A DNA stretch of 64,000 nt. Source: Eledone cirrhosa (taxonomy: Eukaryota). Below are positions 36,841 to 61,398 of this stretch, piece after piece. The stretch spans positions 243,226,001 to 243,290,000 of the forward strand of contig OZ024742.1 of assembly GCA_964016885.1 (NCBI GenBank). The letters are read 5' to 3'. The notes under the pieces are model-generated. The model ran no database searches, was not told the DNA's origin, and saw nothing but the letters and a program-made list of their open reading frames with translations. Within the stretch, counting starts at the first letter, position 1; each line of letters opens with the position of its first letter. The position numbers and the translations under genes were made by a program.

Positions 36841-37417
36841 TACTCTTAGTACGGCTGTTACTTAAATATAAGTATGTACACGTATATACATATATGTATA
36901 CAGACGTACAGTAGTATGTATATATATATACATACATGCACATATATATATATGTACGTATGGATTCACCAAACATTTATTATAATGCTCGGTGTGTTTG
37001 TAAACAAACATCCCGTATTTAGCCGTAGTGTCTAGCAACCATCGTTGCTCGTTTGTTCAACACTGACAAAGGAACGCTGTACTAGTTTCAAGCTTATTAG
37101 CTATCGTCAGCAACGTATACCTTCCTGCCAGATGATTGAACGTCTGAAAGTATATACTTACCTTATGCATATTAACGGCTGAGCAGCCTAATTTGCATAT
37201 CGAGTGAGTTAGTCGGCCGGGCGCGCCGAAAACGATAAACGGAAAAAATGAAACGAAATTTCATTCCCCACTCTTAGTACGGCTGATACTTAAATATAAG
37301 TATGTATACGTACATACATATATGTATACAGACGTACAGTAGTATGTATATATATATACATACATGCACACATATATATTTATGTACGTATGGATTCACC
37401 GAACATAATGCTCGGTG
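36841..37417 (-). mobile_element. HHR-containing repeat, about 1.3 tandem 430-bp monomers (family also at 60020-60977)
   Basis: actcttagtacggctg.tacttaaatataag at about 36842 and 37270. Confidence 0.85.
37074..37116 (-). ncRNA. Minimal type I hammerhead ribozyme motif
   Basis: Minus strand: acgttg-CTGACGA-tagct aata agctt-GAAA-ctag-TA-cagcgt. Confidence 0.82.
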
Positions 37418-38139
37418 TATATTATGAAATACTGTTGGCTTCATGCTCACAATAATTTCTATACTTTAATTATATATATATATATATATATATATATATA
37501 TATATATATATATATATATATATATATATATATATAAGAATAAAATTAAGTGTGTGTGTGCGTGCGTGTGTGCGTATATGCTTGTGTGTGTGTGTATGTG
37601 ATAAGTTCTAAATTAGTTCATTGTTTTACGATCGTTTCAGAGGTTTTATTGATCATGATAAATCGATATATTGACTAATAGAGATTTGGTTATGCCTCCA
37701 CCCATTACTAGTCTCGATATCCTAGATCCATCACCTCGTCTTCCTCAGAAACAAATTCTGCATGGAGTTCTAACAACGTTATTGGCACTACCATAATCAT
37801 ATGGATACTAGTATACACACACACACACATATATATATATATATATATATATATATATATATGTGTGTGTGTGTGTGTGTGTGTGTGTGTGTGTGTGTGT
37901 GTGTGTGTGTGTGTGTGTATAAGCAAAGAGATATTTAATTTGTTGGTTATTCAACAAATTTATTTATAGCAGATTCGAAGCACTCTACAAGTTCTTCTGG
38001 GGTATAATATCAATGATATTAATAAATGAAAACTATTTTTATAAAACCATATTTATTTTATCATATCTATCCAAACTGAACTTAAAACGATAAGTTCTTA
38101 TTTTTTGGATATGTCAATACTTATAAAACAACTTTTGTA

Positions 38140-38196
38140 TTTTATCTGATGAGAGCGTACCAAAATGTTGGTACGCTTGAAATATATATAATAAAA
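38140..38196 (+). ncRNA. Type I hammerhead ribozyme motif
   Basis: ttttat-CTGATGA-gagcgtacca aaatgt tggtacgctt-GAAA-tatata-TA-ataaaa; fully paired. Confidence 0.85.
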
Positions 38197-38269
38197 CAAA
38201 TATGGTTTTATAAAGATAGTTTCCATTTATTAATATCATTGATATATATATATATATATATATATATAT

Positions 38270-38838
38270 ATACATTAAAATATATGATAAACACAAAACG
38301 TGTTTGCATTGCAACAGACAGTCAGCTATTAATGAAATAAACTAATTAAAGTGAATACAATTTGTCTGTCTCGATATAAGTCAATAAAGATTTGGGTTTC
38401 GAGTTCTAACAACGTTATTGGCACTACCATAATCATATGGATACCAGTATACACACACACACACACACACACACACACACACACACACACACACACACAC
38501 ACACACACACACACACACACACACACACACACACACACACACACACACACATATATATATATGGTAGTGTCAATAACGTTGTTAGAACTCCATGCAGAAT
38601 TTGTTTCTGGGGAAGACGAGGATTTGGGTTTCGAGGTTCAAATTCGTCTACAGAACAGGTTTGGATTTTGAAATTTAAATCTGTCCAGGAATCATGGCCG
38701 TTGCCAATATAAGCTTGTCTTTATTGACTTATATTGAGACAGACAAATTGTATTCACTTTAATTAGTTTATTTCATTAATAGCTGACTGTCTGTTGCAAT
38801 GCAAACACGTTTTGTGTTTATCATATATTTTAATGTAT
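38270..38838. repeat. Foldback repeat with about 120-bp inverted arms
   Basis: 38270-38390 is the reverse complement of about 38718-38838. Confidence 0.85.
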
Positions 38839-39217
38839 TTAACTGCTCGGAAATGCCCCTTTCCTGGAGCTTAATTATTGTAAAGGACTGAGAGCTTATT
38901 CTCAAAATATTATATAGTATATATATATATATATATATATATATATATATATATATATATATATATATATATATATATATATATATATATATATATATAC
39001 ATATATATATATATACATATATCTATATATCTATATACATATATATATATATATATATATATATATATATATATGTATATATATATACATATATATATAT
39101 ATATATATATACATATATATATATACATATATATATATACATATATATATATATATATATACATATATATATATATATATGTATATGTATATATATTATT
39201 ATTATTATCATATATAA

Positions 39218-59300: not shown

Positions 59301-60228
59301 ACCTAACTATTCGATTAATAGAAATCGATGAAATAACTAACGCAGAAATTAAGCGAGTCAATAATATCGACTAAATCCCTTGAATGATTCTACTAAAAGA
59401 ATTGGTTGAGCGCCTGACTTGTGGCATTTAATTATGATATATATGTATGGGTGTGTGTGTGTGAGTGTGTGTGTGTGTGTGTGTGTGTGTGTGTGTTTCT
59501 CTTGCTGCATACAAAAACAAACAAGGGAAGAGAATCCATCCTGATCGGCTCATATCCAGAAGTCAATCAGGAGAGATAAAACTGACGTCTATATATACAC
59601 CCGGTTATAACTAGACATAAAACAATTATATTTGCATGTATTTCTAAGCATATATATATATATATATATACGTATGTGTTATATATATATATATATATAT
59701 ATATATATATATATATATATATATATATATATATACGTATGTGTTAATATATATATATATGTGTGTGTGTGTTTGTGTATATATATATATATGTATATAT
59801 ATTTGTATATATATATGTATATATATATAGAAGTGGATGGATACTTCAACAGGTACAATGTACTTGTAGAAATATTCAAGTTGTTTATAATACATGTCGT
59901 TCAATTATATGTATATATATGTATATGTGTATATATTTATGTATATCAGCCATGTAGAGTGAAATTTTCTTTTTTATATGTATATATATATATATATATA
60001 TATATATATATATATATATATAAGTATGTATACGTACATTACATATATGTATACAGACGTACAGTAGTATGTATATATATACATGCACATATATATATAT
60101 ATATATGTACGTATGGATTCACCGAACATTTATTTAAATGCTCGGTGTGTTTGTAAACAAACATCCCGAATTAAGCCGTACAGTGTCTAGCAACCATCGT
60201 TGCTCATTTCTTCAACTCTGACAAAGGA

Positions 60229-60271
60229 ACGCTGTACTAGTTTCAAGCTTATTAGCTATCGTCAGCAACGT
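60229..60271 (-). ncRNA. Minimal type I hammerhead ribozyme motif
   Basis: Minus strand: acgttg-CTGACGA-tagctaataagctt-GAAA-ctag-TA-cagcgt. Confidence 0.82.
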
Positions 60272-60665
60272 ATACCTTCCTGCCAGATGGTTGAACGTCT
60301 GAATGTATATACTTTCCTTATGCATATTAACGGCTGAGCAGCCTAATTTGCATATCGAATAAGTTAATCGGCCGGGCGCACCGAAAACGTACATACGTAC
60401 ATATATATATGTGTGCATGTATGTATATATATATACATACTACTGTACGTCTGTATACATATATGTATGTATGTATACATAATTATATTTAAGTATCAGC
60501 CGTACTAAGAGTGAGAAATGAAATTTCGTTTCATTTTTTCCGTTTATCGTTTTCGGTGCGCCCGGCCGATTAACTCACTCGATACGCAAATTAAGTTGCT
60601 CAGCCGTTAATATGCATAAGGAAAGTATATACTTTCAGACGTTCAATCATCTCACAGGAAGATAT

Positions 60666-60708
60666 ACATTGCTGACGATAGCTAATAAGCTTGAAACTAG
60701 TACAGCGT
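60666..60708 (+). ncRNA. Minimal type I hammerhead ribozyme motif
   Basis: acattg-CTGACGA-tagctaataagctt-GAAA-ctag-TA-cagcgt. Confidence 0.8.
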
Positions 60709-61398
60709 TCCTTTGTCAGTGTTGAACAAATGAGCAACGATGGTTGCTAGACACTGTACGGCTTAATTCGGGATGTTTGTTTACAAACACACCGAGCATT
60801 ATAATAAATTTTCGGTGAATCCATATGTACATATATATATGTGTGCATGTATGTATATATATATATACATACTACTGTACGTCTGTATACATATATGTAT
60901 GTACGTATACATACTTATATTTAAGTAACAGCCGTACTAAGAGTGAGAAATGAAATTTCGTTTCATTTTTTCCGTTTATATATTTATGTGTGTGTATATA
61001 TATATATATATATATTTGTATAAAAAAATAGAGGTGTGAATGCGCAACCGGTAAAAACTTAAAACTAAAACTGAATACTAACTAATACTTATTACTAATT
61101 TATACTTATTCCTAATTAAACTATTTTTCACTGGGAAAAATTTGCCACCATTTTCTTTTCCTTTTTACTTATATATATATATATATATATATATATATAT
61201 ATATATATATATATACAGTATATGTGTGTGTGTAATTAAATTTGTGTGTGTAAGGTCACATCATATGCATATCTTTACATGCATATCGATTGAGAAATGG
61301 TTATTATAAACCACCGCAGCTCAATTAATGAGGTGACGTTTAATAGAGAACAGACCGGCTTTTGTCGATTATGAGTAGTAAGATGGAGTATTGTCAGC

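What the first reader, a model, noticed from the sequence alone, without database searches (positions are those of the whole stretch)
36841..60977. About 430-nt HHR monomer present as more than one unit in two independent insertions
Seen in sequence: 36841-37417 and 60397-60977 each contain one full unit of about 430 bp plus a partial repeat, with different start and stop registers and one canonical minimal HHR (CTGACGA...GAAA ctag TA) per unit. The 60-kb copy also has a long inverted arm with another HHR, and a fragment lies at about 45748-45790. Inference: permuted, greater-than-unit-length copies fit reverse transcription of a circular or concatemeric RNA.
Basis: partly seen in the sequence, partly recalled or inferred. 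Interest (0 to 1): 0.7.

Follow-up and report, generated by a model that had tools for sequence, protein, structure and literature searches.

The report
Hammerhead retrozyme with Penelope insertion ends
A 428-base non-coding repeat carrying a predicted self-cutting RNA motif sits in thousands of places in this animal genome, and its copies end at two fixed sites 59 bases apart, so it was likely pasted in by the enzyme of a Penelope-type jumping gene, probably copying round a small RNA circle that has not yet been detected.

Summary
The window has a 1.35-unit copy (36842-37418), a two-armed insertion (60015-60389 inverted, 60392-60979) and a stub (about 45745-45790) of a 428-nt unit with one type I hammerhead. 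The exact core occurs 5,424 times in the genome. Head-to-head pairs take one site each (29 of 46; none short+short). That is the published Penelope-like element (PLE) tail, and an RT+GIY-YIG PLE family here shows the same layout. Arms cross the ribozyme cut with no pile-up, 22 of 51 exceed one unit, and turns within an insertion mostly share one haplotype. This fits a circular template, but an uncleaved linear multimer fits too; no RNA was examined. Verdict: new member of the metazoan non-LTR retrozymes, likely PLE-mobilised. The scan noted this layout before on other DNA of this genome (e1-8665316, e1-8670563).

The parts
36842..37418 (-). Single-arm copy, 1.35 units of the 428-nt monomer (unit positions about 85 to 428, then 1 to 238)
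37074..37116 (-). Type I hammerhead motif; CUGACGA at 37110; predicted cut after GUA, between 37080 and 37079
   Evidence: stem pair counts over copies
37150..37198 (-). Candidate U6-like internal promoter: octamer ATGCAAAT (37198-37191) and a TATA-like box (37157-37150); function inferred, weak statistics
37235..37293 (-). 59-nt tail segment between the short (unit position 214) and long (273) 3'-end sites, here internal to the copy
36867..36954 (-). TA-rich stretch of the unit, predicted to fold as one long hairpin (second copy about 37295-37382)
60392..60979 (+). Long-end arm of a two-armed insertion, 1.37 units, 3' end at 273 running into TA repeats; HHR 60666-60708 with a stem I mismatch
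60015..60389 (-). Short-end inverted arm, head-to-head with the long arm (2-nt gap), 3' end at about 214-217 into (TA)n; intact HHR 60229-60271
45745..45790 (-). Stub with the standard long end (273) joined to (TA)n, no HHR
36783..36838 (-). Terminal segment of a different HHR repeat family, joined in the same orientation to the 3' end of copy 1 through 3 extra bases; likely template-switch chimera (inferred, one case)
44180..44414 (-). 3' stump of an autonomous RT+GIY-YIG PLE family with its own HHR-like motif (44369); candidate enzyme donor, partnership not shown

Best explanation
These are copies of an abundant non-coding, hammerhead-bearing 428-nt repeat (a non-LTR retrozyme) whose two fixed 3' ends in (TA)n and head-to-head arms indicate that it is likely written into the genome by a Penelope-like RT/GIY-YIG enzyme, probably copying round a circular monomer RNA. 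Shown here: unit length, HHR motif, copy number, the two end sites 59 nt apart, (TA)n targets, one end type per arm, variable 5' ends, arms of up to several turns. Inferred: (1) a tandem source copy is transcribed, possibly from the U6-like octamer+TATA just upstream of the HHR; (2) HHRs cut the transcript to monomers, probably as dimers because stem III is short and palindromic, and a host ligase closes them; (3) a PLE protein cuts both strands of a (TA)n tract and starts reverse transcription internally at unit positions 273 and 214, one start per DNA end; (4) each RT runs round the template through the joined HHR site and falls off about once per 380 nt; (5) the two cDNAs are joined head-to-head. 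The window copies have one HHR per arm and would be dead-end products. My odds: PLE enzyme about 0.9; circle, given PLE, about 0.6.
For: 3' ends: 54 of 140 at 210-219, 59 at 263-274, 0 near the HHR cut; of 46 head-to-head pairs 29 are short+long, 0 short+short, 1 long+long, 16 have one off-site end. In 53 consecutive long-end junctions picked without regard to length (51 mapped), 25 have an inverted partner and 23 of those end at 212-221. 53 of 61 long and 42 of 55 short ends run into (TA)n, against 6 of 26 other ends. The exact long-end/(TA)n junction occurs 4,081 times genome-wide, the read-through form 4,625 times. PMC8557442 (passages) describes partial tandems, an inverted truncated copy and a one-sided tail for PLEs; PMC11167929 (parts 1-2 of 4) shows in vitro that a PLE cuts both strands of AT-rich DNA and starts at two internal RNA sites that bound the tail. 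The genome holds long RT+GIY-YIG frames, and one such family has the same two ends: 14 of 38 arms at +540-542, 21 at +576-590, one of each in 7 of 8 loci with a motif on both strands. For a multi-turn template: 29 of 51 arms cross the cut, 22 exceed one unit, 9 cross it twice, lengths fit an exponential (KS p 0.44); no excess of 5' ends at the cut (5 seen, 4.7 expected). Discordance at 13 polymorphic sites is 52/507 between adjacent turns, 39/436 and 16/221 between arms in and out of register, and 43% between loci. L158 has 9 turns in two arms at 0-0.6% divergence, all sharing one rare variant. Rare variants shared within an insertion are 13 A>G against 1 T>C (p 0.001); singly covered ones 60 against 28. 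The circular fold is -130.5 kcal/mol, z -6.7 against 60 shuffles. Stem I pair 395:3 stays paired through double changes in 12 of 239 copies.
Against: No sequence homology between the unit and any PLE end in 40 loci tested (30 GIY-YIG hits, 10 long frames), so the partner family is not identified. The tail is 59 nt, not the 30-40 nt of the papers. PMC11167929 finds uncleaved RNA the dominant PLE substrate and HHR cutting unnecessary, which favours a linear multimer. 17 of 74 insertions have two or more discordant polymorphic sites, some a haplotype switch between turns (L133 10 of 13, L076 8 of 13), which a single monomer circle does not explain. Only 3 of the 13 shared A>G variants are private to their locus, and the unshared ratio (40:27) is not significant. 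Long arrays L092 and L099 have a period-2 pattern, and in L092 it is younger than the insertion, so array length alone proves nothing. In L154 one rare variant is in 6 of 7 turns of one arm and neither scored turn of the other. Length-corrected 5' ends are not uniform (p 2e-4; about twofold excess at 241-260, 321-340, 381-400). T6 at 260-265 and T4 at 276-279 would stop Pol III before one turn, and the promoter-like boxes are no more conserved than their neighbours (2.0% each). 27 of 140 3' ends are off-site.
Confidence: 0.55

Rival explanations
1. Same PLE enzyme and same two start sites, but the template is a linear, uncleaved multimeric transcript of a homogeneous tandem source locus; no circle takes part.
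For: PMC11167929: HHR mutants do not change PLE insertion in vitro and PLE mRNAs hold several copies. Short-stem-III HHRs cut poorly as monomers (PMC4209133 passages; PMC7229834). Near-identical arrays of 5-7 units exist to serve as sources (L154, L158). Haplotype-mosaic arms occur. There is a mild excess of 5' ends at 381-400, near the predicted start site (15 against 7.1).
Against: In-register and out-of-register divergence between arms are alike (3.6% and 4.0%), so templates carried no ordered unit differences. Adjacent-turn divergence (3.2%) is about that of unrelated loci of the same haplotype (3.0%). Many haplotypes transpose, and each would need its own homogeneous array. No pile-up of 5' ends at the cut, which partial cleavage would give.
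Confidence: 0.33
2. DNA-level spread: satellite-type unequal exchange, extrachromosomal DNA circles or a Helitron-like rolling circle, with the HHR as a passenger.
For: Post-insertion period-2 and period-4 expansions are seen in L092, L094 and L099.
Against: It does not predict two strand-specific 3' ends 59 nt apart, one per arm, shared in layout with an RT-coding PLE family, nor the sense-strand A>G excess or the stem I double changes.
Confidence: 0.05
3. The copies are truncated pseudo-LTR stumps of one longer autonomous PLE, not an independent element.
For: Layout and target are those of PLE stumps, such as 44180-44414 in this window; preprint 10.64898/2026.07.22.740005 derives retrozymes from pLTRs.
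Against: Arms run upstream into a further turn of the unit, for up to 7 turns; no recurrent 5' boundary was seen in 141 5' ends and no homology to 40 PLE loci (one locus, L185, simply holds a nearby copy of the unit).
Confidence: 0.04

Closest known systems
Metazoan non-LTR retrozymes (Cervera and de la Pena 2020, PMC7229834, parts 2-4 of 6 read; Li, Clavereau and Pollet 2026, 10.64898/2026.07.22.740005, parts 1-3 of 5 read)
   Same: Non-coding 150-450-bp unit with one canonical type I HHR, tandem and dispersed copies in thousands, strongly self-paired predicted fold, coexisting PLEs; a U-U at the base of helix II as in axolotl HHR_Amex2.
   Different: Here the insertion ends themselves carry the PLE signature (two 3' sites, inverted arms, (TA)n), which the parts read propose as a partnership but do not map. 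No pLTR homologue was found. Cleavage and circles are untested for this family.
Endonuclease-bearing Penelope-like elements (Craig et al. 2021, PMC8557442, passages; Frangieh et al. 2024, PMC11167929, parts 1-2 of 4; Cervera and de la Pena 2014, PMC4209133, passages)
   Same: Partial tandem, inverted 5'-truncated arm, tail on one end only, AT-rich or microsatellite targets, HHR in the repeat, 3' ends internal to the RNA.
   Different: No ORF; the whole element is 428 nt; tail 59 nt rather than 30-40; the HHR is of the canonical (6-bp helix I, 4-bp helix II) rather than the PLE minimal type.
Non-autonomous Chlamys PLEs such as MRC1 (PMC8557442, passage)
   Same: Non-coding PLE hitchhikers that form pLTRs and head-to-tail multicopy insertions.
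   Different: Those generally share 3' sequence with an autonomous family, and their clade is reported to lack canonical HHRs.
Newt satellite 2 and schistosome satellite (as cited in PMC2220036, passage; primary papers not read)
   Same: HHR repeats with an internal promoter (snRNA-type Pol II in newt, Pol III in schistosome).
   Different: The promoter here is only a motif match to this genome's U6 upstream regions.

Membership tests
Metazoan non-LTR retrozyme | One type I HHR per unit with conserved core and helices | tested here: met
   Manual pairing and pair counts over about 240-257 copies; Rfam did not score it
Metazoan non-LTR retrozyme | Unit of 150-450 bp, in tandem and dispersed copies | tested here: met
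   428 nt in the window copy, 420-430 spacing in arrays; 5,424 exact cores
Metazoan non-LTR retrozyme | No protein-coding capacity, no LTR structure | tested here: met
   No frame of 120 aa or more overlaps 36842-37418; the terminal redundancy is a partial extra turn of variable length. PBS and PPT were not searched.
Metazoan non-LTR retrozyme | Highly self-paired monomer fold | tested here: met
   Circular MFE -130.5, z -6.7 against 60 dinucleotide shuffles; prediction only
Metazoan non-LTR retrozyme | Two or more consecutive units with complete HHRs ('active' in Li et al. 2026) | tested here: met
   Met by the family (L154, L158 and others); not met by the window copies, which have one HHR per arm
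Metazoan non-LTR retrozyme | Self-cleavage of the RNA | not testable with these tools
   Needs in vitro transcription
Metazoan non-LTR retrozyme | Expression as linear and circular monomer RNA | not testable with these tools
Autonomous Penelope-like element | RT plus GIY-YIG ORF | tested here: not met
   No ORF in the unit; such frames lie elsewhere in the genome
PLE-mobilised (non-autonomous) element | Partial tandem, inverted 5'-truncated arm and a tail on one end only | tested here: met
   29 of 46 pairs short+long, 0 short+short; 23 of 25 partners of long ends are short; tail 59 nt
PLE-mobilised (non-autonomous) element | AT-rich or microsatellite target | tested here: met
   95 of 116 on-site ends join (TA)n against 6 of 26 off-site ends
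PLE-mobilised (non-autonomous) element | Sequence homology to the pLTR or 3' end of an autonomous family | tested here: inconclusive
   None in 40 PLE loci, out of more than 10,000 GIY-YIG candidates in the genome

The most novel reading that the evidence does not exclude
A genome-encoded, viroid-like RNA circle with its own U6-type promoter is reverse-transcribed by rolling circle from both ends of a Penelope-made break, two RTs starting 59 nt apart on one edited circle; several unrelated HHR circles share that enzyme and can be spliced together by template switching, as at 36838-36842.
Probability: 0.35. Interest if true: 0.75.

Novelty: new member of a known kind. Interest (0 to 1): 0.45.

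Why it matters
The papers read propose that animal retrozymes are moved by PLE enzymes from circular RNA, on grounds of co-occurrence and pLTR phylogeny. This family carries the PLE two-site initiation footprint directly on its insertion ends and names the two start sites, the target and candidate enzymes in the same genome. That makes both the partnership and the rolling-circle step testable in an existing in vitro PLE assay. The class of element is known, the circle is not shown, and the scan has already recorded this layout several times in this genome, so the window copies add little beyond a possible inter-family chimera and the U6-like promoter lead.

Tried and rejected
Sequencing runs: no RNA holder listed. 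Contigs of four coded runs were laid on 36700-37560; they show the family and its variants but cannot show circles, strand or expression, and were not used. Rfam: the 150 best of 316 whole-window matches shown were microsatellite-driven miRNA-type noise plus two tRNA hits; no hammerhead model matched the unit. The repeat finder was swamped by microsatellites. A first 8-bin test called 5' ends uniform (p 0.49); the length-corrected 22-bin test did not (p 2e-4), so I claim only 'no pile-up at the cut'. The idea that the terminal turn carries fixed variants (from an A/T difference in both window copies) was not borne out across loci. Period-2 arrays as proof of a dimer circle were rejected: in L092 the period-2 units are closer to each other than to the inverted arm. 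The first end-mapping of the PLE family was blurred by microsatellite alignment and redone with a trimmed reference capped at +590. A 21-nt match of the unit to L161/L168 was not followed up and is treated as chance. U2 upstream regions gave no convincing match. Target-site duplications were not assessed, as ends lie in (TA)n. Literature searches for this family: hammerhead+Penelope+octopus, cephalopod+hammerhead ribozyme, and searches listed no paper that appears to describe it (listings only); Repbase and Dfam were not available, and supplements of the cited papers were not read and may list it. Rows dropped before counts: 15 of the first 100 loci as overlapping duplicates; 2 of 53 junction loci with no mapped arm; 14 of 256 arms under 85% identity, arms over 1,400 nt and the TA-rich and poly-T columns in variant counts. 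Loci L002-L030 were selected for likeness to the window copy and L031-L100 for an exact HHR core, which biases lengths and core conservation.
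Full report
Observation. The unit is 428 nt. I number it from the base after the predicted hammerhead cut, in hammerhead sense. Copy 1 (36842-37418, minus) is 1.35 units. The 60-kb insertion has a 588-nt plus arm and a 375-nt minus arm joined head-to-head. The stub at 45.7 kb holds only the last few dozen unique bases. The motif has the full core, a 6-bp stem I, a 4-bp stem II on a U-U pair and a 1-2-bp stem III with a palindromic loop. This fits the 'canonical' metazoan type I description in PMC4209133 (passages read). Rfam does not score it. 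Across copies the stems stay paired, and one stem I pair is kept through double changes in 12 of 239 copies, probably one or two inherited events.

Family. The genome (G000, 3.0 Gb) holds 5,424 exact copies of the 35-nt core. I mapped 100 loci (85 after removing overlaps; 142 arms) on the unit. The 3' ends are not dispersed: 54 of 140 fall at 210-219 (true end about 214, blurred by TA) and 59 at 263-274 (mode 273); none lies near the cut. Of 46 head-to-head pairs, 29 have one short and one long end, none two short, one two long, and 16 have one off-site end. A second sample took all 53 listed long-end junctions in a 31-Mb stretch; 51 could be mapped, 25 had an inverted partner, and 23 of those ended at the short site. 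On-site ends run into (TA)n in 95 of 116 cases, off-site ends in 6 of 26. The exact long-end junction occurs 4,081 times.

Why Penelope. Partial tandems, an inverted 5'-truncated copy and a tail on one end only are the described marks of PLE insertions (PMC8557442, passages). An anole PLE cuts both strands of AT-rich DNA in vitro and starts reverse transcription at two internal RNA sites that bound the tail (PMC11167929, parts 1-2 of 4). This genome has many GIY-YIG domains and long frames with RT followed by GIY-YIG; the two translated carry a CxxxxCxxC linker, which PMC8557442 ties to the Neptune and Nematis clades; I built no tree. One such family, with 5,579 exact copies of its own hammerhead-like motif and a stump in the window, has two 3' ends into simple repeats, one per arm in 7 of 8 two-strand loci. 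I found no sequence homology between the unit and 40 PLE loci, so the actual partner is unnamed.

Template. The 3' ends lie 155-214 nt upstream of the next cut site, and arms run back through the cut: 29 of 51 cross it, 22 exceed a unit, 9 cross it twice. Lengths fit an exponential, and 5' ends show no excess at the cut (5 seen, 4.7 expected), though they are not uniform overall. A cleaved linear monomer is therefore excluded unless the RT jumps ends seamlessly. Turns and arms within an insertion differ at 7-10% of polymorphic-site comparisons, against 43% between loci, with no register effect. L158 has nine nearly identical turns in two arms. Shared rare variants are skewed to A>G in hammerhead sense (13 against 1 T>C), as A-to-I editing of the template would give (ADAR editing is recalled knowledge; RT error bias is an alternative), but only 3 of the 13 are private. 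Against a simple circle: 17 of 74 insertions are mosaic at two or more sites, some arrays grew after insertion, and the in vitro PLE prefers uncleaved RNA. I put the circle at about 60:40 over an uncleaved multimer.

Promoter lead. An octamer lies 81-88 nt upstream of the core with a TATA-like box 42 nt further on. Three of five U6 loci examined have an octamer or near-octamer at -76 to -80 and a TATA box at about -30, 46-48 nt apart; the window unit matches one of them at 12 of 12 bases (shuffle p 0.01-0.035 for the 110-nt region, 0.14-0.19 for the whole unit). The neighbouring hammerhead family has a similar arrangement. A start near position 382 would precede the ribozyme by 10 nt. However, T6 and T4 runs would stop Pol III before one turn, and the boxes are not more conserved than flanking sequence. 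This is a lead only.

The window copies. The 60-kb insertion is a typical short+long pair and the 45.7-kb stub a typical long end. Copy 1 ends off-site at 238 because it is joined, in the same orientation and through 3 extra bases, to the 56-nt terminal segment of another hammerhead family. A template switch between two RNAs that use one enzyme is the likely reading; nested insertion with deletion is the alternative. With one ribozyme per arm these copies could not release a monomer in cis.

Comparison and verdict. The family meets every sequence-testable feature of metazoan non-LTR retrozymes (PMC7229834, parts 2-4 of 6); cleavage and circles are untested. It is not an autonomous PLE. It works like a non-autonomous PLE. 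The parts read of PMC7229834 and of preprint 10.64898/2026.07.22.740005 propose PLE mobilisation but do not map insertion ends. Eight searches listed no paper that appears to describe this family; repeat databases and supplements were not seen. I reached the two-end PLE reading before opening the scan's earlier notes, which report the same layout, and a 420-422-nt family probably identical to this one, elsewhere in this genome. They are not independent support; one prompted the editing test. New member of a known kind; interest 0.45.

Noticed in passing
window 36378-36838 (also 33060-33356 and 59932-59979): A second, unrelated abundant HHR repeat (core at 36516 minus, 33162 plus) with tandem octamers and a TATA-like box upstream, and its own inverted arms; 3,186 first-look candidates in the genome. 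Possibly the 467-nt family of e1-8803865; not verified.
   Followed up: partly
window 44180-44414: 3' stump of an RT+GIY-YIG PLE family with a hammerhead-like motif (5,579 exact copies). In the sampled loci most 5' ends pile up at +340-353, about 40 nt upstream of the motif; unexplained.
   Followed up: partly
window 5443 (-), 8913 (-), 36256 (-), 38146 (+), 40046 (+), 45443 (-): Further hammerhead-like motifs, several with long helix II and an ATATAT-type stem III typical of PLE minimal ribozymes; 38146 and 8913 pass a stem filter.
   Followed up: no
window 6249-9813 (+): Broken LINE with APE endonuclease and RT domains in several frames.
   Followed up: partly
window 28819-30299 and 31527-32893: Homogeneous minisatellites of 37 nt (40 copies) and 36 nt (38 copies), 96-98% matches.
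   Followed up: no
window 19074-19281: Two inverted tRNA-like sequences (tRNA-Ala(GGC) call at 19074-19145 minus; Rfam tRNA at 19211-19281 plus), possibly SINE heads.
   Followed up: no
L093/L094 (G000:C1:51.77-51.79 Mb), L092, L099: Long arrays of the unit with period-2 and period-4 higher-order structure: a satellite growing from a retrozyme insertion.
   Followed up: partly
variant table: Unshared rare variants also show G>T 45 against C>A 23 and G>A 88 against C>T 59 in hammerhead sense at non-CpG sites (46 G, 40 C); unexplained strand bias.
   Followed up: no
L156, L160, L025/L026: Whole two-armed insertions duplicated later at the DNA level, with identical junctions 2-30 kb apart.
   Followed up: no
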